A stretch of 64,000 bases of DNA from Podarcis cretensis (Eukaryota): positions 42,842,001 through 42,906,000 of the forward strand of contig OX638164.1 of NCBI GenBank assembly GCA_951804945.1, given 5' to 3'. The translations under genes were made by a program, and so were the position numbers. The notes under the pieces are model-generated. The model made no database searches, had not been told where the DNA came from, and was given only the letters and a program-made list of their open reading frames with translations. Position 1 is the stretch's first letter. Each line of letters begins with the position of its first letter. Of the stretch, positions 1 to 64,000 are shown piece by piece.

Positions 1-1254
1 GAACAAGAGGAAAGAAGGGCTGGAACAAAAGAAGACGTGTTCTCCTACCTGCAGGTGAGCTTCATTGTAGTGACATGGAATAGGGCCTCTTCTGACAACT
101 CAGTCACCGCAACCTGAAAGAGTCTAGCACAAAGAGTTGCAGATGGAACACAATAGCAGGGAGCACAGCTATCTTACACCCTTGACCGAAGAACGGTACA
201 CTCCTCCAATCTGGGATGGCCATCCTCTTCCACCGAGTGCGCCACTTCGGGAGGGATGCACATGGAGCGGTGATGGATACAGCACAATCCACCCCCTTAA
301 CACATTTGTCAGTGAAATCATAGGCTATTATTTTAGAGTTATTACTACCACAGCCACGTTACCTATTGGTGATAGTTTTGCCTGCCCTGTTGTATAGTTA
401 CCTTTTGACGTCCGTTTCCCATTGATTTTGTAATCTTGTCATTGCTGCTGGAAAGACCAGTCATTTCAGTACAGCTCTACTCACTACAACGCTTCTCAAG
501 CATTCGTTCTCCTTCCACTGGAATCCTCCACTTGCAAGACACACTGGAGACATATTCCAGAGTTTAAGGCTCCATTTTAAGATGGGAATATACAGAAAGG
601 AGAGACCGGTACAAAAGCATTGCATTGAAAAAGGTCACTGAGTAGTCTTCATTCAAAGACTAATTAGTTTGTAAGGTAAATAAAACGTTAAGACTTTAAA
701 GTGTCTTAGTACAAGAACTGCAGGTGGAAAAGAGATTTTCTCTCCAGCCAAGCACGAGATACTCACCTAGAAGCCCTCCAGTCAGAATACATGAAACTGC
801 ATTGTTACTTTAATTGTGATGTAGCGTTTCAAGTTTACTTGATAGGTATTTGCACCTGTCACCACTTCTGACAAATCAAGAGTATTTAAAAGTTACCTTC
901 CTTCAACTGCAGTGCTAGTTACTGGCAAAGGAAGCTGACTGCTAGATCCGCTTTTTAAATTGGTATTTTAAATATATTACCTTCAGTGCTAGAGGATCCA
1001 AGTTTTTTGTATAGAGTCAACGCTTTGTGTTGTCTCAGCAATGAGCTAAATAGCTGTTCCTAAAAGATGCTTAGCGAAAATAAAATAAAATCCAAAATCC
1101 TTGGTTATTACCACTAGATAATCACATTACACATCAGGGGTAATTTTGCCTGGCCTGTTCCATAGTTACCATTTGAGCTCCATTTCCCGTATCTTTTTGT
1201 AATCTTGCAGGTTCTGCTGGAAAGGCTTAGTGCAGCTGATGTTCTCCTCTGCTT

Positions 1255-4463: not shown

Positions 4464-4480
4464 AATTATAGAATCATAAA

Positions 4481-5001
4481 AATCTTAAAAAGCAGAGAAT
4501 CTTAAAAAGCAGAATCTTAAAAAGCAGAGGCATCACCTTGCCAACAAAGGTCTGTATAGTTAAAGCTATAGTTTTCCCAGTAGTGATGTATGGAAGTGAG
4601 AGCTGGACCATAAAGAAGGCTGATCGCCGAAGAATAGATGCTTTTGAATTATGGTGCTGGAGGAGACTCTTGAGAGTCCCATGGACTGCAAGAAGATCCA
4701 TTCTTAAGGAAATCAGCCCTGAGTGCTCACTGGAAGGACAGATCCTGAAGCTGAGGCTCCAGTACTTTGGCCACCTCATGAGAAGAGAAGACTCCCTGGA
4801 AAAGACCCTGATGTTGGGAAAGATGGAGGGCACAAGGAGAAGGGGATGACAGAGGACGAGATGGTTGGACGGTGTTCTCGAAGCTACCAGCATGAGTTTG
4901 ACCAAACTGCAGGAGGCAGTGGAAGACAGGAGTGCCTGGCGTGCTCTGGTCCAGGGGGTCACGAAGAGTTGGACACGACTAAACGACTAAACAACAACAA
5001 C
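4481..5001 (+). mobile_element. BovB (RTE-clade LINE), 5'-truncated
   Basis: Encodes the RT C-terminal peptide 'IVKAIVFPVVMYGSESWTIKKADRRRIDAFELWCWRRLLRVPWTARRS' and ends in a (caa)n tail. Confidence 0.93.
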
Positions 5002-29000: not shown

Positions 29001-29780
29001 CCTGCTTAGAATGCTTTTCTTGAAAGAGGAAAGTCTTCAACAGACACTGGAAATACAACAGAGATGCTGCCTGTCTGATATGTAGCAAGAGCAGGGATGG
29101 AAAAAAATCTGTCAATTTCAATTCTCTCATTTTCCCAATCTTAAATTCAGGTTTCCGCATTTTTTAATTCTCATGAAAAATCATCAGCATTTTTGTGCTG
29201 GTGGGTAGTAAAATGAACACATTTTCTTATGCAGTTTTGAGTAATGTACACATTTTTGCAAGCAGCTTCTCCTAAAATAATGCATTTCTGCATGCAATTT
29301 TCACGAATATATTCATAACATATGCAATTTTGTAAACATTGGTTGAAGCACTGCATCACAAAATTTGAAGAACGCGAATTTCAAAGAATGGCTGTCTCTT
29401 GGTTCACATATTGTTTATATTGCATAGATATATTGTGTAGATAGGTAGGAAATGTCACTTGTGTCACTTGTGAATTTGTTCATAAATCAATTCCATCATT
29501 TTTCTGCATTAATTCTTCTTACTTGTTTTTAACTTGCCTCTCTTGAAGGAGGCCAGGGCAGCAAATCTGCAGAAGTAAATCAGGGAAATTGCAGGAAAAT
29601 GTGTATATCATAGAATTATAAAATTGTAGAGTTTGAAGGCACCCCTGAGGGCCACCTAGTCCAATGCCTGCAATGCAGCAACCTTTCCTGCAGCCATCCC
29701 TTGGTGGGCTCAAATCCCCAGCCTTCTGGTGAGACATGCTGATTCATTGTTCCACATTTAGCACAAACTATTTAAATACT

Positions 29781-30159
29781 GATCACCAAAGAATTGATGC
29801 TTTTGAATTCTGGTGCTGGAGGAGACTCTTGAGAGTCCCATGGACTGCAAGAAGATCCAACCTCTCCATTCTTAAGGAAATCAGCCCTGAGTGCTCACTG
29901 GAAGGACAGATCGTGAAGCTGAGGCTCCAATACTTTGGCCACCTCATGAGAAGAGAAGACTCCCTGGAAAAGACCCTGATGTTGGGAAAGATGGAGGGCA
30001 CAAGGAGAAGGGGACGACAGAGGACGAGATGGTGGGACAGTGTTCTTGAAGCTACAGACATGAGTTTGACCAAACTGCGGGAGGCAGTGGAAGACAGGTG
30101 TGCCTGGCGTGCTCTGGTCCAGGGGGTCACGAAGAGTCGGACACGACTAAACAACAAAA
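29781..30159 (+). mobile_element. BovB LINE, 5'-truncated
   Basis: Peptide 'RIDAFEFWCWRRLLRVPWTARRSNLSILKEISPECSLEG'. 11-bp TSD atttaaatact at 29770-29780 and 30160-30170. Confidence 0.95.
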
Positions 30160-33100
30160 ATTTAAATACTTATTGTACCTCAAAGTATAATATGAAAATG
30201 AGTGCTAAATTTGTGCAATGTTCCACTATAGTTCTGGAAGTGGGTTTTTATTTGTGTGAAAGCTCAAGTATAATGTGGGAATTATCAGTTAGGAAATGTC
30301 ATGAAAATGCAATAAACCGTTGTGTGAATACAGCCCAGGACAGTTCCGATCAGGATCCACAGAAATTGTATTTCTCAAGCATGCCTATATCAGACACACA
30401 GGAATAAGTGCAAAATAGCTGATAAGAATAAACCCATTGTCTTTGTTTTCACACAGTAGAGCAAAATCTGGTTTACGTACAGTGCCTTTGTCCAGATTGC
30501 CCCACTAGTTTCCCATTTTCTTCCTAGCAGAAATCTGAACGGACTTTGTGGACAAATAAATATATTGTCATTCTTTTCCTTTTTCATTTGCAGAACAAAG
30601 CCACAGGTGTGGCTAAAAAAAAAGCTCCCCTATACTTTATGCAGTATCTTGTCATCCAGAGTAAACACGGACTTTAATGACATTGTCAGGGAAGAGAGGT
30701 GAGATATTTGCCTCTGAAGCAGCAATAATATTTGATTGAGAAACAAAGCATCAAGTAAACGAGATAATAATCGCATGCGGTGAACAAATACTGCCCAGAT
30801 CCTGGATTAAAGGACGTGACAAAAGTCGTCCAATTCCAACTGATAGAACTTTGGCAGCCAGAGCTGGACACAAAATTGGGGGAAGGTGGGGGACTTTTCG
30901 GAAACCAGTACAGCATGTAGTTATTTGATCTGTCATGAGATGGTGACAGGCATTTTGCACAACAATCCAGAGGATAATTCTCTTGCACAAATCTCATTTC
31001 AATTCAAAGCAAACCACAAACCAGATTATTCTTCATTCTCTTGCACAGATCCCCACCATTCATTCATTGAACAACATCCATGCAAGAAAATGGTGACAAT
31101 CTAGTTTCTGTTTTGCTCCGGATTTGTACCTAATACTGGAGTTTAGGTGCTAAGTAGTTGTAAAACTGCAATGCTTAAGTGTCTGCAGTATCTTTCCAAA
31201 CAGGCGCACCACCTTGACCCCGCGACACTGGGTGCCCAGGGCATGCTGACGTCACCACAGCATGCGCATGTGATGTTGGCACACCCTGCAGCGTGTGCAT
31301 GCCATGGCTTAGGACTTGAACATGTGTGGGTTCCCACAGCCCCGCGTAGATGGTGCCTATGTTTCCAAGGGAGAAGGATGGGAAGAAAACCAGAACAACT
31401 TGGCTTCATTGGCCATGTCTCTGGGACCTCCTAGCAGCCCCACAAGGTCCATTGGGCACCAGCCAACACTGGGTTGAACCAAATCTACACTGGCTATTTT
31501 AGCCTCCAAAATGCCCCAGGAGTTCAGCCAACATGTGGGGCACTGCATGGGAGAAATGGGCAGGGCCACCAAGGTAAGCTTCCCCCGCAGGGCTCTCCTG
31601 AATCTTGGGAAGGCCCAACATTGCAGGAGGGGTGACTCACTTTACCAAGGCCTCTCAGTACCAAAGCTTGTTCTCTTGATAGATGGCATGGATTCTCACA
31701 TAGCATATTAAGGCTGGATCTACACTGATCTGTAAAAATGCTTTAAAAAGTAATATAGCTCTCAATGCAATTTTCTATTGACTGCTGTACAGCGCCCTCT
31801 GGTGTCACATTTTTATAACACATTATTAATGTTTTATCTGAGCAGTGTAGATTAGTCTTAAATGACTTTCATTTAACAGTCAGCTGATCCAGGGTTAAGG
31901 GAAACCCCTTTAAAAGTCTCAGCAGACGAGAAACAAGCTACTTGCTCCTGCTCATTTAGCTACACTAGGCTATTCCCGAAGAATTCCTTAGTGCAGCCTA
32001 TCTCGGCTAATTGTCAGGTTTTTGGCTCCATGGTGCTCTCTCCAATCACCAACAATCTGCTGAAAGTGGGGGCTGTGCCTGCAACCCCCCTTTTGACCCA
32101 GTCTTGACTTTGCCTGTCCCACACATGGGCTTGGCCAAAATAGCCTGGTGAGCCAAATGGCGAAGCCTGGAGGGGCTAATTAGGCACATGGGCTGTGGGT
32201 TGTGGGTCCCCACCCCTGATTTAACCCAGTCTTCCCCAGCCTCATGCCCTATGGATATTCCCCAGCCCACATGGCCAAGGCTGATGGGACACCTGCTTGG
32301 GAAAGGTGAATTTAATAGCTTAAGCAAACAAATGATGGATTCCAGGGTGTGTTAAAAGAACTGGTGCTCACATAACAGGTAAACCTTGTGGTGTATTCAT
32401 CCAGAAAAAAATATATCCCCAAGGATATTAAAGCAGCCCTTTTTCAGGAACATTGAATACATTATTTAAAAACTAAGCTCTTCTATTCTGTGTGCTCTTC
32501 AGAATCCCTTTGGCACATCCTCTCCTTTGTTAGACCAAGAGGTTATATTGTAAGCTGTGTCACCTTTATGGGGCAGGGACACTACAGGTGATTCAATATT
32601 GTTACAAACCACCCCAATCTACGCCTTGGGGTAGCAAGAGATCCCTGGGTTCTAGGCACGTAACCAGGGTTGTATTAAATGTGCAAACACTTTCCTGTAT
32701 ATGTGCAGTGCTCCAGCTTCATGGAGATGCATTTCCCAAGCAGGTGGCGGGCAGAACATGCTCAGAGGTCACCTTTAAGGACAGGGAACTGAATTATTTG
32801 AGGACAGGGGACAGGCATTCCTTCTCTCTGACAGCTGACGTGGACTGCCAGCACCCATAGTATCAGTCATCGTTTTCACATGGAATATTCTCATAAGCAA
32901 GGGAACAAAACAAATGAAGTCAATGTGTTGCCCTCCAGATGGATTGGACTACACTTCCCCTGACCATTAGTCATGCTTGCTGGGGTGATAGGAGTTGTAG
33001 GGCCCCATCTTGGTTTTCACTAAAATGGAGCTTGAATAGGGATTGGGCCAGAGATTGCTTCTCACTTTGCCAGTTCCAGACTTTGGGAAGCATTTTGTAA

Positions 33101-36112: not shown

Positions 36113-38069
36113 CATCTCATTTTATTTCCCCACTTAATCCAGATTTACCATTTCCCTGGAAAATCAAGTAAGCTTTTAAAAAAATGGGTGGCATTTTGAT
36201 GGCATGCAAGTGCTGTAAAAAACTTGCTGGCATAGGGAGCACAAAGTACCCAACGAAATGCCATGTAGAAGTAGCCACAGTCTCACATCTGTATCCCCAA
36301 AGGAGCATTTCCACCCGCATGGTTCAGCTGAGATCCAGCTCCAAGAGTCTTTTGGCAAAAAGTGAGGTTACGGGGGACCAGGGGAGGGCCTCCTCGGCAG
36401 TGGCGCCTGCCCGGTAGAACGTCCTCCCATCAGATAACCAACTATACAACTTTCCAAAGGCATCTGAAGGCAGCCCTGTCTCGGGAAGTTTCTAATGTTT
36501 GATGTTTTGTTCCTTTATATTTTGTTGAAAGCCACCCAGAGTGGCTGGAGTAACACAGTCTGATGGGTGGGGTGTAAGTAATAAATCACCACCACCACCT
36601 TGGCCTTTCAGCAAGCACCAAAACAAAAGTGCAAGAAATGTTCACTGCCAATCTAATGACCAATTTGTTTCTAATGAGACAACTCTATGGGGGAGAAGAG
36701 AACTAAAATTGGGAGGAACAGTGTTTTCCAGATTTCAGTAATGCAGTGAATATTTAAAAATTCTCTCAATTCTGGCATATCTATGCTGCAAATTTAAACC
36801 AATTTGAAACATGTTTATCTGTGTTTCTTTCAAAGAACCACAGGAATTGCAGTTTGTGAAGGGTACTGAGATGTCTGCGGTAGAGATCCCCAAATTCCTT
36901 CCTATGATTTCCTGCTTCAGAGCTGCTTCAGAGCCCCTTCAACTATGCTATCTGGGAAGCTTACAGTTCAACATGTCATATGGAAGTTAGGGATGGTGGT
37001 GAAATTTGGTTTTGTCTGCATTTCATTGTGAACCTGCTTCATTTCTACTTCTTGAAGCAGTAGAAATGTACCACAGAGGGCTTTTACAAACCATTGATCC
37101 AATCCAATAAGACAACCACACCATCAAATTCCCATACGGCTTGCCTGCCAAGGTACAATTAGTTAATACTGTTGTATCTGTATATACCAGTAGCATTAAT
37201 GTGGTATACTCATTTATCATATTCTCTTTGCTGCAGCTTATCCTTAATCTTTGTAAATACAAATCTGTATCAACAGGAGATCTTCAGAGACAGCGTCCCC
37301 AGTGTGTACTCTCAGAATCACTATAAAAACAGTGTGAAGAGATCAGCCAAATGCAGAAGAGTGCTTAAGCAGTAAGGCAGAAATTGGCTAGAAAAAGGCA
37401 ATTGTCTTGCAGTAATTGCTCACATGCTGTACTGTAACTTTTTGTACTTTTATTTTGCAGTCAGTAGAATCATGTGGATTAGGTTTTCCTGGACTTCAGA
37501 CAACAGATGGAGAGGAGCAGGAAAAGGGCTGCATGTCTGAATTCACTCTCACCTCCCCACGAAGAAAACTACAAAATATGGACTCCTAATTTTTAGTTTC
37601 TTTAAAAATGGCACATAGCCCTTTTAAAGCTACGTGAAAGGGGAACCAGCATAGACTTTGCATTCCAAAGCAAAATTATCAGATCGTAATGAAGTGTAAA
37701 GAAAGAAAAAGATGATTACACCCTGCCACCTTTTGGCAGAATGCAAAAAAAGTTTGCTTTCTTTGTATGCATGAATATAAAGATTTTTATTTTTGCATTT
37801 GAACTTTGGAAAAGAGAAACTGTAACTCCTCCAGCCCCTTAGAAACCCCATATTTCAGTTTCTGAAACCCCACCATCTGCTTCCACAGTTTTAAATCTAC
37901 TTGCACTGTCTCATGTGCTAGAGACATTATTTCATAAAATAACGCAGGCTACTGAATTCTGTACATTTATGAGTTTCTTATCAACTACCAGATTATGAAA
38001 TCCTTTCCTAGGGTCATGGAGGGGGTCTGTGTCTTTCCATCACCCATCTCCAAATACACAGGGTATGTA

Positions 38070-38326
38070 CCGTATTTTTCGCTCTATAAGACGCACCAGA
38101 CCACAAGACGCACCCAGTTTTTGGAGGAAAACAAGAAAAAAAAATATTCTGAATCTCAGAAGCCAGAACAGCAAGAGGGGTCTCTGCGCAGTGAAAGCAG
38201 CAATCCCTCTTGCTGTTCTGGCTTCTGGGATAGCTGCGCAGGCTGAATTCGCTCCATAAGACGCACACACATTTCCCCTTACTTTTTAAGAGGGAAAAAG
38301 TGAGTCTTATAGAGCAAAAAATACGG
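38070..38326. mobile_element. Tc1/mariner (pogo-like) MITE
   Basis: TA TSDs, TIRs ccgtatttttcgctctataagac / gtcttatagagcaaaaaatacgg, and an internal inverted repeat at about 38154-38230. Confidence 0.85.
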
Positions 38327-38739
38327 TATTTCTACATATAGTGTGCATTATGACATAGCACTGGGGCCTGCAAATGGTACCCACAGACACCATCAGACAA
38401 CTTTTCCAAGCCCAACAGGAGCCACTGACACTCCCAATTTATATTTTTTTATTTGTCAGGAAGGGATCTGTTTTTTGGCTGTGTTTTATTTGTTGGGGGG
38501 GGGTGTTCTACCTGCTGCTGTGGGTGGGGAGTCTCAGCGATCACTAAATTTTCTTCTGTAAAACAGTTGTTTTGTGGTGCTTCCACATGCAGAAAAAAAG
38601 GTAAGAGCCGCTTTGCACAGCCATCTGTGATGCCAAAGTCAACAGGTATGCAGAAGATGTACCTCTGAACACATATTTGTGTGCTTACAACACATTTTAA
38701 GGCACGTGTCTTCACTTTGATGTGAGTACCAGGTTTGTA

Positions 38740-38885
38740 CAGGTGAAACTCGAAAAATTAGAATATCGTGGAAAAGTTCATTTATTTCAGTAATTCAACT
38801 TAAAAGGTGAAACTAATATATGAGATAGACTCATGATATGCAAAGTGAGATATGTCAAGCCTTTATTTGTTATAATTGTGATGAT
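38740..38885 (+). mobile_element. Tc1-like transposon terminal fragment
   Basis: TA followed by 'caggtgaaactcgaaaaattagaatatcgtggaaaagttcatttatttcagtaattc'. Confidence 0.65.
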
Positions 38886-39173
38886 CAGAGGACACCCAGG
38901 TTCAAATCCCACCCCATCCCCAGCCATGAAGCTCACCGAGTAATTTTGGGTCAGTCATTCACTGCGCCTGCTCTACCGCACAGGGATGTGGGGAAAAGAA
39001 AATGTAACACCGCCCTGGGATCCTTGGAGGTAGGTGGGATAAAATATAATTAACATATTGCAGAATTCTGCCCCAGACAACTTGAGTATAAGTTCCTAGT
39101 TACCATTTACCACCCCCCCCCCAAAAAAAAATCAAACACAAAATACATGCATATGGAAATCAGATCAAATACT

Positions 39174-39179
39174 TTTATT
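39174..39179 (-). terminator. Candidate distal poly(A) signal of SLC25A37
   Basis: On the minus strand, AATAAA is followed by 'tattttgtgtttgattttttttt' (GU/U-rich element) and preceded by AU-rich UTR-like sequence. It would imply a 3'UTR of about 6.5 kb. Confidence 0.5.
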
Positions 39180-39709
39180 TCTTAAGCTCCAGTGTTTTAA
39201 CTGTAGCAGCATTTCTCAGAAAAACAACTTTCTCCCCTGTTAAATATATACATATACATATATGTAGAAACATTCATTTAAAAAGTAGACATTGGTAAAT
39301 ACATAAAAAGGCAATTTTAGAAGAACAAAATATCAATTTTTAAAAATCCACCCTTGTTTTTTTAAAAATAAATGTGCGCTTATAGCATGCAAAGCAGCAA
39401 TGTGTGCACTTGTCTGCTTTGTTTCTTAAAGACCTTTCAAAAAACTTTAGCTGCTAGAATATTTTAATTTCTTAAGCCAAGACATGGCATAGCTGAAGAT
39501 GGCTTTAGAGCAGAGGCAGGGAGCGAGTCGCCCCCCCCCCCCGATGTCATCAGGCTCCCCATGCCCATCAGCCTCAGCCACCATGAGCAATGGTCAGGAA
39601 TGATGGCAGGTGTAGTCTGTAATCCCTGGGGGACACATTCCCTACTCTGCTTTAGAAGGGGAGCTCCAGTCCCAGCCACTGGTCATTCATGAGTATTCAG
39701 ATTTTTTTT

Positions 39710-39911
39710 CCTTCCAGTAGCACCTTAAAGACCAACTAGGTTAGTACTTGGTATGAGCTTTCGTGTGCATGCATACTTCTTCAGATACCATGCACACGAA
39801 AGCTCATACCAAGTACTAACCTAGTTGGTCTTTAAGGTGCTACTGGAAGGATTTTTTTTATTTTGTTTTGACTATGGGCAGACCAACACGGCTACCTATC
39901 TGTAACTGGAA
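39710..39911. mobile_element. Penelope-like element remnant with inverted terminal duplication
   Basis: Perfect 63-bp inverted repeat and the PLE-type end 'gttggtctttaaggtgctactgga...caacacggctacc'. Flanked by the direct repeat cagatttttttt (39698-39709 and 39912-39923). Confidence 0.8.
39750..39789 (-). ncRNA. Minimal type I hammerhead ribozyme motif
   Basis: Minus strand reads GGUAU-CUGAAGA-AGUAUGCAUGCACAC-GAAA-GC-UC-AUACC: stem I, both catalytic core boxes, stem II and a vestigial stem III. Confidence 0.7.
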
Positions 39912-42900
39912 CAGATTTTTTTTGTTTTTTTAAAAATGAAGACTGCACTCAGAGACCATCCCACTGGTGACTGTCAGAATCTTCCCCAGATGCTTCACAG
40001 ATTAGCTTCTGAGAAGCCAGCCTAGTTCATGGTGAAATCCTAACCTCTGATCTAGATTGCAAGGAAATCAAATCAAATAGGCATCAAGGGAGACCAGTCT
40101 TTAAATGTAAGCCTGTCCCCAATTGTGTGCACAGTGGTTGGTGAGGTTTAAAGCAGAAAACATGATGGCGGGGCTCCTGAACCCTGCCCTCCCCATTCTA
40201 CCCAACACACACACCTTCTTATAGAATTACAATCTGGCTAGGGAAAATGACCTCAGGAGCCACTGCTGGTGTGCACACGTAGGGCTGGAACATAGCCAGA
40301 AGGAGGGTCCAGCAAGCCCCCACCCCCATGCCTCTTTTGTATTTTGAATCATATTCCTAACAGAATAAAAAATACTAGCCAGCAGAGTTTTGGGCTGGGT
40401 CAGTTATATTTGGTTGATTTTAGACTGTTACTGTCCTTAAGGTCACAGGCATGTATTAACGGCAGCAGCATAAGGGACACAGCTACAGATCTCCCTCCCG
40501 CAGCAACGTCTGTCTTCTCGTGCATGCATTCTGCAACATTAGCAAGCAGAGATGCGGCTGTAAACTGGATCCCTGATTGGCTAGCTTGTGCTGCTTCATT
40601 TTCAGTCACACCATTAGTCAATGCGTGAGCTGATTCCAAACTGCTTTTCCCAGAGGCCTATTTTCCAACTCAACTGGGAGACTGCTTCACACTTTCTTGT
40701 GATAGAGGGTTTTGTGCATAAAATGTTTTAAAATGTGCAGTGATTAAGCAGGCATATGGCATAACCAACATGCTACAGACCCTTGCAGCATGTTCCTGTA
40801 GTGGAAGACCTGTGGTTATCCACCAGTCGCTTGGGCAAAAGCAACTCTGATCTACGAATAGAAAGTTGGGTCCAGTTCAAAAAAGCTATGTCTCTAGTTC
40901 TGTGCACAGTTCATCCAAGGCAAGCCCTGTCCAAACATACACATCCAACAAACTTCTGAAAGGAGGGGTTTTCAAAAGCAGCTTGTAATAAGGCATTGAG
41001 CAGGGCGGGTGAGCGTGCATCCATACTACTCAAAGGTGGAAACAATTGGCCATGAATACTTGCCCTAGTTCTGAGCATTCTGCTGAACCCATGTCTGGGC
41101 TGTAGCACTTCAGAATGTAAGAGGGAGGTTTACATTATATATCAAGTGTGGCGGAACCTCCAGATGTTGTTGCACTAAAACTCCCATCACTCCCATCTAG
41201 AATGGGCACTGGTAGAGTTAACAGGAGCGGGAGTCCAATATCTGGAGGGCCACAGGTTTCCCACCCGTGTCCGTACAAAAATTCTATTGGCAAAGAAATC
41301 TAGACTGTACAGTAACCTAGCCTAGTCTTCTGTCTGACAGTGTAGGAATCAATTTTAAATTTCAGTCCTCAAGACCAAGGTTATTGCTAAACTCTCCTCT
41401 GGTTTGTATGACACTCGGGAATGTCTTTTACCTCTACATTCCAAAGGCTGAAAATGCTACATACACACCGTTAATGAAAAATAATCCTATTGGTTTTGCA
41501 ACCTAATGTCCAGTTGATGTTTTCAGTTGAACAAACAGGCAACTAGCCATGATGCACACACATTCGTCTTCCAGCAGTAGCTGCTATAATAATTCTGTTT
41601 TCCCCAGTCAAGTAATGCACTAACCCTGCTTCTAGCCAACGTGCCTCTAGCTCTCATACATCTCCAAAAAGGCAACAGCAAAGATTATTCCCCAACAGTA
41701 GAAAGTTACTCAAGGGCCAAGTTACTAAATGTATGCTGGGACTGCTGTCTGCATTTCTATCCAAGTGACCAGTCCCTGTATTCAGAAGGGCAATGAAAAC
41801 CAGCATGCAAGTACATTGCAGAAGAACATTTGACTGAAGGTATTGAGTGGTACCTTTAAAAAAATCCTTCAGCTTCCTGGAAATCATTCAGTGAGAAGTA
41901 TTATCAGAATGGTTTTAAAACTTAGTGCAAGCTTGACAACAAATTCAATATTTACTCGGGGTAGAAGCATTGTAGTTAATGGACATGTTTAGCTTAGGTT
42001 CATTAATTTCAGTGGGTCTACTCTGGGTAGGATACAGTGGAATACCACCCAAAACCTCCTTCTGCTCCAAACATATATGCTAAGAAAGCCGAGAAGCAAG
42101 AGACACACGATTTTGAAAATGCTTAAGTAGTGATTCAAGAGGTGTTTTACAAATTCAACTGTGCACCTCTACAATCAATATTTGACCACCAGGAACAGAA
42201 TCCTCTTTTTGCCAGGGAATACAAACACACACACACGGAAGAGAGAAACCCACCTAAATAAAAAAAAATGCCACAGCAGGGTGAGGGGAGATCAAAATTT
42301 TTCTGATATAACCATCAAATGGCAGGATGCCATTTTCAGACTGGTTATCCCTCCACAGGAAGACCTTAGGACACCTTCAGAATGCAGGTGATCATCCCTG
42401 TCAAGTAAAGGGCAATTCCAGATGCAGTACTTTGGCCAGTGACCACGTCAAGTTCTAGGGCAGACCTCCGTGTTGCGCCCAACCCTGAAGACAACACTTG
42501 TGTCAGTTGCTCCCCGACTGCCAATCCCAGTAGGAACACTTCCCCCAAGTGGTGAGATCAGGCGCCTGGGCTGTGTGGACATACAATCACAACATGGTAA
42601 AGGTGACCCTACTGACCATGTCAGGATGAGGTGGGGAGATGGAGGGAAAATTTACATGGGGTGCTCTTTCAAGAATCAGCCCCATATCACGCACACCCTG
42701 CAGTTCTGCCACAAATATATTATAAACAGTGCTTTTTTGTGACAGTACTGACCAGTATGGAGTACCATCACCTTTTCCCCCTGCCCATGGCAGCCATTTT
42801 GTACTGAAACTCATGGTTCTTTTTAAAGATATGAGTACCGGCACCTTTTGGGTCTTTTCTGCACTCTTCCCCCTGCAAAAAAGCACTGATTAGAAAGATT

Positions 42901-43384
42901 TGGGATGGCGGCAAAAGGTAGCAGCCAATATGCAAATGAGCAGCAGCAGCAGCTCTAAGCCCACCATAACCCACCAAAGAAAGAAAAGGAACCTCTGAGG
43001 TATTTTTGTTTCACTTCTCGCTGCTGAGGAAGCAGACGACTGGAATAATCTGAAGCAGTTATGTATTAGTATTTATAATTAAAGTGATCAGGTTGAGCTT
43101 TGGCACTTTCAAGCACAAAAGCAACCATCTACAACCCATAGACTTGGAGCAGCCTTCATCCACATGGCGCCCACCAGGTCTATGGAACTACCATTCCCAT
43201 CAGGCTGATCTGCAGCCAGTCCACCAAGTGCATTAAGATTACTATGAAATAGCTGCTATTTATAAATAACTATTATTTATAAAGTGTATAGACCCAGGCA
43301 CTTTGCAAGGGGCAGCCCGTTACAATTATTTCTTATATATTGTTCAGTTAAATCCCAACAGGATTTCTTCTTCTTTTCTAAGTA

Positions 43385-43892
43385 CCGTATTGACCCAAAT
43401 ATAAGCCGCACTTGCAAATAAGCCACACCTTTAAAATTCAAAGGGGGGGGGGAGAAAATACCCAATTATAAGCCGCTCCCTTAAAATTGTGCAGGCACTC
43501 ACACCCGTAATTGGCAAATGTAGAAGAAAATCCTACGGGTATCATTCCCCCACACTCCGTGGATGCTTCCTGGGGGGGGGGAGAGCTGTGCTGCTTTGCC
43601 AGCGGCCTCCCCCCCCCCTTCCCCCTGACGGCTTGGGGAGGCTTGGGAGCCCCAGTCGGGATGCGTACCATTGTCCCACACCCCCGACAGCCCTCGTGGT
43701 GGCATCGGGGGGGGGGCTCTCTCCATTCCGGCCCTGGAAGGCAAGGCAGGGCCACAGACCTAGCACAGCTGTTCCAGCAGCGATGTCGTAAAAGCCAACT
43801 TCTGTAAGGTTGCAAATTTAAGCCGTACTTTAACTTTTCATGATTGGAATTGGGGGGGGGGGGAAGTGTGGCTTATATTCGGGCCAATACGG
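43385..43892. mobile_element. Tc1/mariner (pogo-like) MITE in putative SLC25A37 3'UTR
   Basis: TIRs ccgtattgacccaaatataagcc / ggcttatattcgggccaatacgg. TA on the left, CA on the right. Confidence 0.8.
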
Positions 43893-44004
43893 CATCTTGC
43901 TTTAGAATTGTACATTTTCCACATACAGGGATGTGTAGCACACAACAAACAGGACCATCCAGTTGCAATCCTGATTTGCTAACTATATATATAAAATAAA
44001 AATA

Positions 44005-44245
44005 CAGTGATACCTCCAGTTACAAACGCCTCAGGTTACAAATGCTTCATGTTATGAACTCCGCTCACCTGGAAGAGTTACCTCGAGTTGAGAACTTTTC
44101 CCCAGGATGAGAACGGAAATTGTGTGCCAGCAGCGCAGCGGCAGCAAGAGACCCCATTTGCGAAAGCACGCCTCTAGTTAAGAACAGTTTCAGGTCAAGA
44201 ACGGACCTCCGGAACGAATTAAGTTCATAACTAGAGGTACCACTG
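44005..44245. mobile_element. Tigger-like MITE in putative SLC25A37 3'UTR
   Basis: TA TSDs, TIRs cagtgatacctccagtta / taactagaggtaccactg. Confidence 0.85.
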
Positions 44246-45666
44246 TAAACTGTACTCTTTGTATGGACAAAACGTTTCTGGGACAGCACAAAAGTTGTAC
44301 ATGTTCATAAAAAAGCAGACACAAAGCTATCACAAGTGCTAGAACTAACTCTACATACCTTCATTTGTACAGGCCAGAGGGCCAAGAGCAACATCACCAC
44401 TCTCTCTTTTGGGGGGGGGGGGGGAGTGAAGTTTGTCTCTGCCTCTGCAAAGGCTTTTTGGTTCAGAGGCATTATAACTGTACCGCAACAAAGAGCTGCC
44501 TTTTCATGTCAGTTTTTTTTGCCTTTTACTTTTTTTAAAAAAACAACAACTAAGAAGTGATTCGAGGCAAGTTTTCCTAAGGAAATGTAAACTGATGCCC
44601 CACCCCTCAGCACACTTGCAGGAGTGAAATTTGCAAGCACACACACACACACACACACACAACTGCAAAAGGTTTTGGACATTTGTGCACGTCAGGCACA
44701 GGGGTCTTAGTGGGGAAAAGTCACACAACACCTGTTCAGAAACTGAGATGCAATTTGGTTTTAAAGTACCATCAGAGGCATTTAAGGGTTTGCTAAAACA
44801 CGGTTTTATGCAAAACTACGTACTCTTGGTCTTCTACTCGGTATTGGTCAAAACTGGTTTCCAGAAGTGCCTACCAATCCCAATACATTAAAAGGGAAAT
44901 GACTCACATAAGGCAGTTTCTTAAGATTTCAAAGTCCTACACCTCTTTGAGTATCCAGTTTCAGGAGAATTTAAGGAGCTGTTTAAGGATTGAGAATTCT
45001 TTACAACTATGACACTGGACAAGAAGTGATGATTAAAGCCATTCTGGTTTAAGAGGGGTGGGGATAATGCTATTCACAATTTTTCAAAATAGTGCAGAAG
45101 CCTCTTCTGACACACACACACAAAGAACTCTTGTTCAGCTGTTAAAACTCTTAAAAGCCACCCAACTCACTGATATAGAAAAATAAAAGGATAAACATTA
45201 TCCATCAATTTATATCGCATAATTTCTCTATATAGAACTTTGTTCAGCTAAAAGGCTCAATCTTTTACATTTTCAAAGAGGGGAAAGTCCAATCCACAAG
45301 AACTCTCTTTGCCCCTTGCCCCTCAGGGGCGGCCCTCAAAAGGACTTCAAGGCAGAAACAAGTAGGCCTTGTAGAACCCTGTACAAACTGGTCACAGTTA
45401 TAAACTCCAAAGAAAACTATAAATACTTGTTCAAGCCAAACAATCCTTGCACAATATGGTTTAACAAAAGCAGGGGGGAAGGTACAGAATCAATTTCTCT
45501 AGCATCTAAGAAAACACACACACACACACACACAGCAGACCCCAGGGGTGAATCTACCAGAAACCTTTACACAGTCACATAAAGAGCCCTGGAGAATTCC
45601 AGCACCCCCACAAAGGGACTCTGCCGTCTCAGAGGTTCTGGGTTGCAGCTGCAGCACCAGGACATG

Positions 45667-46187
45667 TCAGCACGGCGTCCCTTTCTCCAATTCACGCTTT
45701 GTAAGTGCATATTTGAAGAATTCATACACAGACCAGGAAATGGCAGTTGAAGGCATCTGGTATATCACCCTTGCCTGGACCCCCTTAAAATACCCAGCGA
45801 TGCCCCCCAGCTGGTACACTGTCCTAAAGGCATTGGCCATTCCGGAGAGATGTCCGCTAACGTTCACAGAACTCAACACCATGTTCTCTTGTGTGTTGAG
45901 GAGAGTCTTGCAGACGTCCAGGGGAGTCGTGGCGGCGGCCGCCACAGCCCCAGCCACAGCCCCCGATATGATGTGCGTGCTCGGATTGTACTGCCGGCAG
46001 GGGTTGATCTGCTCCTGCATGAACTCATAGGTCATGAAGTGAATGGCTTGGAAGGGGATGTTCATGGTGAGCTGGGTGCTGTAGCTCCGGTAGAAAGCGC
46101 CCATCCCCTCCGTCCGATGCACCGCCCGGATGCACTCCAGGACCGTCTTGTACGGAGAGTTGTACATCTGCATGCGCTGCTTCACCA
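45667..46187 (-). CDS. SLC25A37: Mitoferrin-1, last coding exon (exon 4)
   Basis: '[13 protein letters not shown]...[15 protein letters not shown]...[27 protein letters not shown]' with the mitochondrial carrier signature. AG acceptor at 46189-46188, 521 nt to TGA, phase-consistent with exon 3. Confidence 0.96.
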
Positions 46188-47201
46188 CTGGCTCAGTGGG
46201 CAGGAAGGCACAGCGAGGCGTTGGGTGTGCCCCGAGCAGGGAAACAAAAGAAATAAGAAAAGCCAAATTAGATGCAATTCACAGATTTCGGAGCTGCATA
46301 CCAACCAATAACAGAATAGTAAATAATGGCCATTGTAATTTCCCAGATAATATATTTGAGTAAGACAAAGTCCCAAAAGTTTAATTTCAGAATTACAAGA
46401 TCTGAAAAGTTTAAAATTTTAAACTTACAAAGCCAAATACACTAAAGTATCTGGCAGATTAAATATCAATCACCCAATCCACTGTCAAGTTTAAAGTAGA
46501 TTTCATTTGGATTCTCAAGGCTGCCAAGCGGGGACATTTGTCAGTCACAAAAGTGTCTGTATCAGACAGAGGCCACATTCAGACCTTTACAGCACTGTGG
46601 TGCCACCTTAAACAGTCATGGCTTCCCCCAACAAATGCTGGAAGCTGAGAGCTTTCAGGAGACCCCTATTCCCCTCACAGAGCTATCATTTCCAGCATGG
46701 TTTGACAATCAATGCCTCTTCCCAAGGAACTCTGAGAGCTGTAGCTCTGTGAGGGTAATAGGGACTATCTACTGGCACCCCTAACAAACTACAGCTCCCA
46801 GAATTCTTGGATGGAAGCCGTGGCTGTTTAAAGTGGTATCTTAAAAGCATGGCGTGATGGGAGCTGGAGTTGCCCTTTCTGAAACAAAACTAATGTAATT
46901 GCTCTGAATGTACCGTTTCAATTCCCAGGTGACCCTCGCAGAAATTTGGGAGTCATTTGCCAGTCAGTACTGACAATGCTGAGCTGCCTGTGTCTCCCAA
47001 TCTGCAACATTTCATTTACTTATTTGACTCCATTTGTGAATAGTTTCCCATAAAAACTCTTGGGGGGGGGAATCAACAATAAAACAATTTAAAATGAAAA
47101 AACAATTCAAAGCACTATGTAGGTCTTATGGATTCCTGGCAATTTTAATGCTCCTTTCCTCCCCTCCACACCACGGAACCATCGATAGGCGAGGGCATTA
47201 C

Positions 47202-62716: not shown

Positions 62717-62984
62717 GCATAGCAGTGCAAGTGGAGCCCAGGAAGGGAAAGAGAGATGGGGGTAAGCAAATGGACAGTTGTCAGAGTGGAGGGGAGAACA
62801 TGGACCAAACTCAGGGCTTCACAACCAAGGATTCCCCTCTATAACCTCAGATGCCATCTTTTTTTAAAAAGGCTCCAGGAAAGCTAAACATTTGAAGGAG
62901 CAATCTACCTGCCTTCACACAAGTAAAAGAGAAGAAGCATCCTTTGAGCAAGGTCACAACTTAGTGGCAGAGTATGAGGTTCCA

Positions 62985-63486
62985 GCAGCCTGCTTCTTGG
63001 GAGAAAAACAATGACAAACCTAGACAGCATCTTAAAAAGCAGAGACATCACCTTGCCAACAAAGGTCCGTATAGTTAAAGCCATGGTTTTCCCAGTAGTG
63101 ATGTATGGAAGTGAGAGCTGGACCATAAAGAAGGCTGATCGCTGAAGAATTGATGCTTTTGAATTATGGTGCTGGAGGAGACTCTTGAGAGTCCCATGGA
63201 CTGCAAGAAGATCAAACCTCTCCATTCTGAGGGAAATCAGCCCTGAGTGCTCACTGGAAGGACAGATCGTGAAGCTGAGGCTCCAGTACTTTGGCCACCT
63301 CATGAGAAGAGACGACTCCCTGGAAAAGACCCTGATGTTGGGAAAGATGGAGGGCACAAGGAGAAGGGGGCGACAGAGGACGAGATGGTTGGATAGTGTT
63401 CTCGAAGCTACCAGCATGAGTTTGACTAAACTGCGGGAGGCAGTGGAAAACAGGAGTGCCTGGCATGCAGGCACTAAACAACAACA
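62985..63486 (+). mobile_element. BovB LINE, 5'-truncated, nested in a Squam2-like SINE
   Basis: BovB RT C-terminal sequence, with an 11-bp TSD atgaggttcca at 62974-62984 and 63487-63497. Confidence 0.95.
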
Positions 63487-64000
63487 ATGAGGTTCCAAGC
63501 TCAATCTGTGGCATCTCCAGAGAGGGCTGGCAAAGACTCCCTGCCCAAAGTCCTGCAGAGCTGCTGCCAGTCAGTGTAGACAATACTGAGCTAGGTGGAC
63601 CAATGGTCTGACTCAGTATAAGGCAGCTTCCTCTGCCCCCAAGGCCACACATTCATGTAAATAAGATTCAATGCGAAGAGCAGCAGACCACAACCACCAC
63701 CGCAAAATGATTAAGACTCATCGGGAAAAGGCAGAGCTTCTCAGAAGCTTGGAAGGAATCCTCCCCAGAATGACTGCTCTGCAGAAGGAGGAAACACAAG
63801 CCAAAGGAAAGTCTCTCTTTGGCAAGTGCAGCCAAAGTTTACCTTGGCAAAGCACAGATCTAGTATTCCTTCACTTTCCATTTGCTAGCAAGCAGCCATG
63901 GCAATTGCACACACTCCGTGTTCCGAGAGGCCTGCCATTAAAGGTTGGTCAACGCGTCCACACTCCGAGCGCTCCAAATGCTCAGTCATCTTTCCCAGCA

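What the first reader, a model, noticed from the sequence alone, without database searches (positions are those of the whole stretch)
39709..39851. Perfect 63-bp hairpin that is mutually exclusive with the ribozyme fold
Seen: 39709-39771 and 39789-39851 are exact reverse complements with a 17-nt loop. On the minus transcript the antisense arm is made first and pairs with the GAAA half of the hammerhead, leaving CUGAAGA in the loop. The default state should therefore be ribozyme OFF. The stem is long enough for ADAR, Dicer or Staufen. Inference: a self-silenced ribozyme that editing or unwinding could release, or a source of anti-Penelope endo-siRNA. Zero mismatches and an intact flanking direct repeat imply a very recent, possibly polymorphic insertion.
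Basis: partly seen in the sequence, partly recalled or inferred. Interest (0 to 1): 0.7.

Follow-up and report, generated by a model that had tools for sequence, protein, structure and literature searches.

The report
Penelope retrotransposon hairpin stub in lizard
This perfect hairpin is real but ordinary: it is a back-to-back stub left by a Penelope jumping gene, one of likely thousands in this genome, its ribozyme is predicted to be locked off rather than switchable, and its only likely effect is as double-stranded RNA in what is probably the long untranslated tail of a mitochondrial carrier mRNA.

Summary
The 63-bp/17-nt hairpin is exact and, on the minus strand, buries the hammerhead (predicted gap 43 kcal/mol). 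It is a 214-bp head-to-head stub of a Penelope-like element (parent ORF: RT + GIY-YIG) with a 12-bp target duplication; a relative's contig shows the empty site. The layout is the family norm: 41 of 72 positionally sampled insertions are such pairs, 20 of 72 have exact stems of 63 bp or more, and the identical junction occurs at 30 loci. It is not brand-new: one junction is present in a second species 1.1% diverged, and this copy has a private stem II mutation. Minimal hammerheads are inactive alone in published assays, and simulated editing does not free this one, so the switch idea is not supported. What survives: contigs of two putative RNA runs cover it and stop just past a minus-strand AATAAA 550 nt downstream, a weak hint that it lies in the long 3'UTR of a mitochondrial carrier gene (probably SLC25A37), and Penelope is already reported as heavily A-to-I edited in lizard. 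The scan found this architecture before in other genomes. Known kind; low interest.

The parts
39698..39709 (+). Left copy of the 12-bp target-site duplication CAGATTTTTTTT (last T is shared with the arm)
   Evidence: empty site in run X17 keeps one copy
39709..39788 (-). Short, tail-less copy of the PLE pseudo-LTR end, element positions +1 to +80 (+1 = G of GTATCTGAAG); carries the complete hammerhead core
   Evidence: matches full-length copy L133
39750..39789 (-). Minimal type I hammerhead: stem I GGUAU/AUACC, CUGAAGA 39784-39778, stem II with a private G-to-A mismatch at 39774, GAAA 39762-39759, palindromic AGCU in place of stem III, predicted cut between 39755 and 39754
   Evidence: no Rfam hit at gathering score
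39772..39788 (.). 17-nt hairpin loop = element +1 to +17, present only in the short copy
   Evidence: same junction 28-mer at 30 loci
39789..39911 (+). Long copy of the pseudo-LTR end, element +18 (centre of the stem II palindrome) to about +139, including the one-sided tail; lacks CUGAAGA; private extra G near 39877
39789..39851 (+). Right hairpin arm (63 nt)
39857..39862 (-). AATAAA supplied by the antisense tail; first AATAAA or ATTAAA on the minus strand after the carrier gene's stop codon; use not shown
39912..39923 (+). Right copy of the target-site duplication (first C also fits the element end)
39174..39179 (-). AATAAA followed by a GU/U-rich stretch; likely poly(A) signal of the host transcript; contigs of X1 and X17 stop at 39162 and 39158
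45665..46200 (-). Last coding exon of a mitochondrial carrier gene (probably SLC25A37/mitoferrin-1; name recalled), stop codon about 6.5 kb upstream of the 39179 signal; 5' edge of the exon approximate
   Evidence: Pfam Mito_carr E 1.2e-36

Best explanation
This is a 214-bp head-to-head stub of an endonuclease-bearing Penelope-like retroelement with a 12-bp target duplication, likely made at insertion by reverse transcription primed from both nicked target strands, and its hairpin is likely a by-product with no switch function. Shown: two copies of the same pseudo-LTR end face each other, one with the tail and one without, and each holds sequence that the other lacks. Inferred: one cDNA began at the outer internal start site (about +139) and stopped at the stem II palindrome, the other began at the inner site and ran off the RNA 5' end at +1, 32 nt behind a TATA box, adding a C (an extra G on the sense strand); the two 3' ends joined through a 2-nt CA/TG match. 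The arms are therefore identical at birth and have not yet had time to diverge. Predicted: in a minus-strand transcript the stem forms and the hammerhead cannot fold; even freed, it is a minimal, dimer- or protein-dependent motif with a damaged stem II. Probable consequence (weak evidence, about 0.65-0.7): it sits about 550 nt before the poly(A) site of the carrier gene's long 3'UTR, where it would be a passive ADAR substrate like an inverted Alu pair.
For: Parent copies L133, L134 have 770-773-aa frames with RVT_1 (E 2e-11) and C-terminal GIY-YIG above cut-off; L133 has the same hammerhead-bearing end on both sides of the ORF. A 22-mer of the hammerhead has 7,980 exact hits, control 0. Of 72 insertions taken in order along contig C1, 41 are head-to-head pairs; of 40 pairs kept, 37 have one tailed and one tail-less arm (p 1e-8 against 0.5) and 33 have a target duplication of 9 bp or more, mostly 12-14; 20 of 72 have exact stems of 63 bp or more. 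The same junction 28-mer is at 30 loci; 4 of 12 fetched have perfect stems of 62-83 bp. Arms of a pair agree at two family-variable sites in 29 and 30 of 31 pairs against about 23 expected. 2,567 of 9,146 copies (28%) depart from the element exactly before +1 and 65% of those have G; only 62 of 7,864 depart at the predicted cut site, against 32 and 37 at neighbouring positions. In 18 of 37 asymmetric pairs the short arm reaches further 5' than the long arm, which simple fold-back of one cDNA does not give. Hammerhead fold costs 42.8 kcal/mol in context; -3.1 versus -9.3 kcal/mol for the family stem II. Present in X1, X3, X5, absent in X17. Layout in print: PMC3846280, PMC8557442; two internal RT starts on both strands in vitro: PMC11167929.
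Against: The two-start mechanism was shown in vitro for a Poseidon element; this family has a linker Cys motif typical of another clade, so the transfer is inferred. This copy's short arm ends at +80, below the usual +92 to +104 (8 of 37 short ends are at or below +88). The extra G has other sources in my sample (a T-to-G variant in L079, bases shared with the partner arm in L005 and L057), and a second cluster of ends at -2 shows mostly T, not G (13 of 16), which cap copying does not explain. No transcription start was mapped. Neutrality is argued from abundance, not tested at this locus: the insert has persisted across two species in a probable 3'UTR. Arm agreement could also come from gene conversion. 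The sample of 72 is from the first 10.6 Mb of one contig and needs an exact 22-mer, so it favours young copies.
Confidence: 0.8

Rival explanations
1. Same origin, but the hairpin has a real effect on the host mRNA as a double-stranded 3'UTR element (editing, Staufen binding, lowered output, or use of the AATAAA in the antisense tail), independent of ribozyme chemistry.
For: X1 and X17 (100 and 77 million letters of contigs, two studies) cover 39160-44100 and stop 12-16 nt past the end of the minus-strand AATAAA at 39179-39174 while DNA runs X3 and X5 go on; no other AATAAA/ATTAAA lies between the stop codon and 39862. Penelope carries over 40,000 hyper-editing sites in lizard (PMC5625713). 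Inverted SINEs in 3'UTRs lower reporter output (PMC5080714 abstract).
Against: RNA status of both runs is a guess; contigs show no strand and no listed contig links the covered stretch to the coding exon. X1 covers the stretch downstream of the insert, so any early poly(A) use is incomplete. Editing in the arms could not be read because thousands of copies pile there.
Confidence: 0.2
2. One reading: a self-silenced ribozyme that editing or unwinding releases to cleave the host transcript.
For: Complete core on the minus strand, antisense arm transcribed first, folds mutually exclusive; minus strand is probably the transcribed one.
Against: Gap 42.8 kcal/mol; with 25% or 50% of stem adenosines barred from pairing the stem persists in 40 of 40 draws and the gap stays 18-41 in the 9 draws where the fold could still be scored; 18 of 20 draws at 50% hit the GAAA box itself. 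Isolated motif's best fold is not the hammerhead; private stem II mismatch. Single minimal motifs showed no cleavage (PMC4209133); the anole motif cut only with the PLE protein and no RNA-seq ends were found at the site (PMC11167929). Same junction at 30 loci.
Confidence: 0.03
3. The inverted arm arose by self-priming/fold-back on one strand at the stem II palindrome (the reading offered in PMC3846280), not by priming from both nicks; function still none.
For: Junctions often fall at the palindrome (+13/+13 pairs, +18 ends); arms share variants; proposed in print for head-to-head PLE junctions.
Against: Here the short arm alone has +1..+17 and the long arm alone has +81..+139, so neither can be a plain copy of the other; short arm reaches further 5' in 18 of 37 pairs, long arm in 11. 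Both target strands are extended in vitro.
Confidence: 0.15
4. The hairpin is a source of anti-Penelope endo-siRNA that contributes to silencing the family.
For: Perfect 63-bp stem; siRNAs map to inverted Penelope repeats in transgenic Drosophila (PMC3681739).
Against: That paper reports these siRNAs did not silence Penelope efficiently; this locus would be one of very many sources; a strong somatic endo-siRNA pathway in reptiles is not established (own knowledge); no small-RNA data here.
Confidence: 0.08

Closest known systems
Insertion units of endonuclease-positive Penelope-like elements with an inverted 5'-truncated pLTR, one-sided 30-40-nt tail and one target duplication (PMC3846280 passages; PMC8557442 passages and Fig. 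2 legend)
   Same: Head-to-head copies, tail on one arm, single TSD, palindrome at the junction, TATA/Inr-like motifs in the pLTR.
   Different: Minimal form with no ORF sequence; TSD 12-14 bp rather than 8-10; vertebrate host; frequency counted here (41 of 72).
Poseidon_Ac of the green anole, internal RT initiation (PMC11167929, parts 1-2 of 4 read)
   Same: Two 3' end classes about 37 nt apart; hammerhead at the pLTR-ORF junction; no sign that cleaved RNA is the main template.
   Different: This family's ORF has a linker CxxxxCxxC motif before the endonuclease (Neptune/Nematis-like by the description in PMC8557442); use of one start site per target strand in one event is inferred here from genomic pairs.
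Minimal hammerheads of metazoan PLEs (PMC4209133, parts 1-2 of 4 read)
   Same: CUGANGA plus unpaired A, long stem II, short stem I, palindromic stem III stub; that paper already notes pairs on opposite strands 100-700 bp apart.
   Different: Stem II of this copy carries a mismatch; the partner is an antisense arm that blocks rather than a tandem copy that allows a dimer.
Inverted Alu/SINE pairs in 3'UTRs and palindromic Harbinger repeats as ADAR substrates (PMC5080714 abstract; PMC5625713 passages and section 7)
   Same: Repeat-derived, near-perfect double-stranded RNA in a probable 3'UTR; lizard Penelope is reported as massively edited.
   Different: One insertion event makes the whole hairpin; shorter stem (63 bp) and tiny loop; editing at this locus not shown.

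Membership tests
EN+ Penelope-like element insertion | Parent ORF with RT and C-terminal GIY-YIG endonuclease | tested here: met
   L133, L134: RVT_1 and GIY-YIG above Pfam cut-offs; the stub itself has no ORF
EN+ Penelope-like element insertion | Pseudo-LTRs with hammerhead flanking the ORF, matching the stub | tested here: met
   Motif at 1362 and 3908 of L133; sequence match
EN+ Penelope-like element insertion | Inverted 5'-truncated copy with tail on one end only | tested here: met
EN+ Penelope-like element insertion | Target-site duplication with an empty orthologous site | tested here: met
   (X17 record 11)
Neptune clade of PLEs | [quoted passage not shown] | tested here: met
   CNKPRCQLC at aa 633 of the L134 frame; feature as described in PMC8557442, shared with Nematis
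Neptune clade of PLEs | RT phylogeny with named Neptune elements | not tested
   no reference sequences on hand
Minimal type I hammerhead | Core boxes CUGANGA, GAAA, UH with stems I and II | tested here: met
   stem II has one mismatch
Minimal type I hammerhead | Rfam hammerhead model at gathering score | tested here: not met
   expected for motifs without stem III
Minimal type I hammerhead | Self-cleavage | not testable with these tools
   indirect only: no pile of genomic 5' ends at the cut site
Regulated (allosteric) ribozyme switch | On and off folds within a few kcal/mol, shifted by a trigger | tested here: not met
   42.8 kcal/mol; 18-41 after crude editing
Regulated (allosteric) ribozyme switch | Conservation or uniqueness pointing to selection | tested here: not met
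   absent in organism E, private damaging change, same junction at 30 loci
3'UTR inverted-repeat ADAR substrate | Lies inside a mature mRNA 3'UTR | tested here: inconclusive
   contig ends at a poly(A) signal in two putative RNA runs; no strand, no link to the exon
3'UTR inverted-repeat ADAR substrate | A-to-I changes in the arms | not testable with these tools
   only contigs; arms swamped by other copies
Hairpin endo-siRNA locus | Phased 21-23-nt reads from both arms | not testable with these tools
   no small-RNA run listed

The most novel reading that the evidence does not exclude
Penelope insertion itself mass-produces perfect RNA hairpins: one event uses both internal RT start sites, one per nicked strand, and runs off the capped 5' end of the short leader RNA, leaving some 3,000 self-complementary stubs in this genome. 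That would explain why Penelope dominates the lizard A-to-I editome, and this copy would be an edited, lineage-specific 3'UTR element (with its own antisense AATAAA) that tunes mitoferrin-1 mRNA.
Probability: 0.2. Interest if true: 0.6.

Novelty: new member of a known kind. Interest (0 to 1): 0.27.

Why it matters
As a single locus it matters little: it is one ordinary stub of a described architecture. The family-level counts are the useful part. They give genomic support for how PLEs make their inverted ends (one tailed and one tail-less arm in 37 of 40 pairs; ends at a probable transcription start, not at the ribozyme cut), which PMC8557442 calls still undefined, and they offer a structural reason for the reported heavy editing of lizard Penelope. 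If the 3'UTR placement holds, presence in organisms A and B and absence in E gives a natural comparison for the effect of a young 3'UTR hairpin on an iron-carrier mRNA.

Tried and rejected
Rfam at gathering score found no hammerhead in the window. A direct genome-wide count of hairpins with a gapped pattern was not possible, so the share of pairs rests on 72 loci from one contig end. Pfam found nothing in the 234-aa EN-side fragment of L022; the full frames were needed. PDB search gave only weak RT matches, best E 0.08. Contig depth on either side of the insert in X1 (36 and 19) was not used as a measure of early polyadenylation. 'Zero mismatches means very recent' was rejected: chance of a perfect 63-bp pair is about 0.5 at the age of the A/B split and 0.1 at the E split. 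Gene conversion or selection to keep the arms perfect is not needed. Paper searches on SLC25A37 3'UTR and Penelope in lacertids gave listings with nothing used; the bioRxiv retrozyme preprint passages did not bear on inverted stubs. L061 was dropped from pair statistics after because the script paired the wrong hits there; L079 looks like a pair but was not counted.

Full report
1. Observation. The arms 39709-39771 and 39789-39851 are exact reverse complements with a 17-nt loop. The minus strand folds at -138 kcal/mol, z -22.7, with 0 of 200 shuffles as stable. A complete hammerhead core (CUGAAGA ... GAAA ... UC) exists only on the minus strand at 39784-39755; CUGAAGA is in the loop, GAAA and the cut site in the stem. 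CAGATTTTTTTT flanks the whole insert. Rfam has no hammerhead hit, as expected for a motif without stem III.

2. What the insert is. The plus arm plus its extension matched 1,176 candidates in the genome, 40 scored, at 97-98%; a 22-mer of the hammerhead has 7,980 exact hits, control 0. [quoted passage not shown] So the parent is an endonuclease-positive Penelope-like element; a CNKPRCQLC linker motif points to the Neptune/Nematis type as described in PMC8557442 (passages); no tree was built. The host is a lizard by my inference (genome of 1.5 Gb, repeat types, gene order; no call names it). Counting from GTATCTGAAG as +1, the minus copy covers +1 to +80 and the plus copy +18 to about +139.

3. 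The layout is the family norm. The first 100 seed hits on contig C1 form 72 insertions; all 72 were fetched. 41 of 72 are head-to-head pairs. After dropping L061 (mis-paired by my script), 37 of 40 have one arm ending near +135 and one near +98, and 33 of 40 have a target duplication of 9 bp or more, mostly 12-14. 20 of 72 have an exact stem of 63 bp or more, up to 210. The 28-mer spanning this very junction occurs at 30 loci; of 12 fetched, 4 have perfect stems of 62, 72, 74 and 83 bp. Scaling 41 of 72 to 7,980 hits gives roughly 3,000 pairs; the sample is one contig end and needs an exact seed, so this is rough. The architecture is in print: inverted truncated pLTR, one-sided tail, TSD, junction palindromes (PMC3846280 passages; PMC8557442), and opposite-strand hammerhead pairs (PMC4209133).

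4. How it was likely made. PMC11167929 (parts 1-2 of 4) shows that an anole PLE protein nicks and extends both target strands and starts at two internal RNA sites that bound the tail. The pairs here fit one start per strand: asymmetry in 37 of 40 (p 1e-8 against 0.5), arms sharing family-variable sites in 29 and 30 of 31 pairs against about 23 expected, and each arm of the focal copy holding sequence the other lacks; the short arm reaches further 5' in 18 of 37 pairs, the long arm in 11. Inner ends pile between -10 and +19 (57 of 113 ends), 32 nt behind a TATATAG. Genome-wide, the base before +1 is the templated T in 6,579 copies, G in 1,680, A in 599, C in 288: 28% depart there and 65% of those show G, as copying of a cap would give. 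Against: some G's come from a variant or from the partner arm, and ends at -2 are mostly preceded by T; no start site was mapped; Drosophila Penelope has a TATA-less internal promoter (PMC2377424 passages). At the predicted ribozyme cut only 62 of 7,864 copies depart, against 32 and 37 at neighbouring positions, so cleaved RNA is at most a rare template.

5. The switch idea. Forcing the hammerhead fold in 400 nt of minus-strand context costs 42.8 kcal/mol. Barring a random 25% or 50% of the 35 stem adenosines from pairing (a worst case for inosine) leaves 41-55 pairs in all 40 draws; in the 9 draws where the hammerhead stems were untouched the gap was 18-41; 18 of 20 draws at 50% hit the GAAA box. 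The isolated motif prefers another fold, and a private G-to-A in stem II (0 of 101 other loci) cuts its fold from -9.3 to -3.1. Single minimal PLE hammerheads showed no cleavage and dimers little (PMC4209133); the anole motif cut only with its protein. OFF is thus the default with or without the hairpin, and editing would more likely spoil the core than free it.

6. Age. Four of 24 listed runs were laid on 37500-44600. X17 (organism E) has one contig joining 39697 to 39912: the empty site. X1 and X3 (organism A, two samples) have contigs running from unique flank into both ends of the insert; X5 (organism B) shows the right junction (the left is not among the listed pieces). Flank divergence from the window is 0.2, 0.6, 1.1 and 3.7% for X1, X3, X5, X17. 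The insertion falls between the B and E splits; a perfect 63-bp pair has a chance of about 0.5 to 0.1 over that range, and the copy has two private changes. Young, but not brand-new, and not polymorphic in the three carriers seen.

7. Host context. A homeodomain gene (plus, 6.3-8.3 kb) and a mitochondrial carrier gene (minus, last exon ending at 45665) converge on the site; the names NKX3-1 and SLC25A37 are recalled. X1 and X17 hold only 100 and 77 million letters of contigs, cover 39160-44100 and stop at 39162 and 39158, just past a minus-strand AATAAA (39179) that is followed by a GU/U-rich stretch, while X3 and X5 go on. No AATAAA or ATTAAA lies between the stop codon and 39862, which is inside the insert's antisense tail. 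This is a weak hint by the tool's own standard (RNA status guessed, no strand, no contig linking to the exon), and I put the 3'UTR reading at 0.65-0.7. siRNAs from inverted Penelope repeats are known in Drosophila and did not silence efficiently (PMC3681739 passages); inverted SINEs can lower expression (PMC5080714 abstract).

8. Novelty. The locus is a new member of a known kind. Searches turned up the architecture, the tail, the siRNA idea and the editing; in the parts read I did not see the per-event use of both start sites, the extra G at +1, or the link between PLE hairpins and lizard editing stated, but supplements were not read and most subscription papers are not searched. Earlier notes of this scan report the same stubs and a similar two-sided copying idea in other genomes (none by sequence); my reading was formed before seeing them. 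Verdict: real, ordinary in kind, switch unsupported, modest residual interest from the probable 3'UTR position and the family counts. Interest 0.27.

Noticed in passing
window 39857-39862, minus strand: The antisense tail of the element (ACAAAATAAAAAAA) supplies an AATAAA, so antisense Penelope stubs may seed poly(A) signals in host 3'UTRs; here it is the first canonical signal after the carrier gene's stop codon, and X1 still covers the stretch beyond it.
   Followed up: partly
L133 1345-1375: In the full-length pseudo-LTR the sequence just upstream of +1 (CTTCTGTTTCAG) is complementary to CTGAAGAAG, so read-through RNA could hide the CUGAAGA box in a native hairpin that a transcript starting at +1 would lack. 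Seen by eye, not folded.
   Followed up: no
window 39814-39881, plus strand; L133 1404-1471: TACTAAC or AACTAAC, a long pyrimidine tract and CAG follow the hammerhead, like a branch point and splice acceptor ahead of a possible start codon just past the tail; an intron in the leader is possible.
   Followed up: no
window 111-296, minus strand: Partial 7SK RNA match (64 bits), likely a pseudogene or 7SK-derived repeat.
   Followed up: no
window 38068-38328 and 43385-43892: Two small elements with 29-nt terminal inverted repeats, the first with an inner 35-nt hairpin, both high-copy in the laid runs; look like miniature DNA transposons.
   Followed up: no
window 4472-4986, 29733-30404, 62908-63570: Fragments of one LINE reverse-transcriptase 3' end, RTE/Bov-B-like by recall.
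   Followed up: no
window 37500-44600: Runs X1 and X3 bear the same organism code yet differ from the window by 0.2% and 0.6%, so the species holds deep lineages that all carry the insert.
   Followed up: partly
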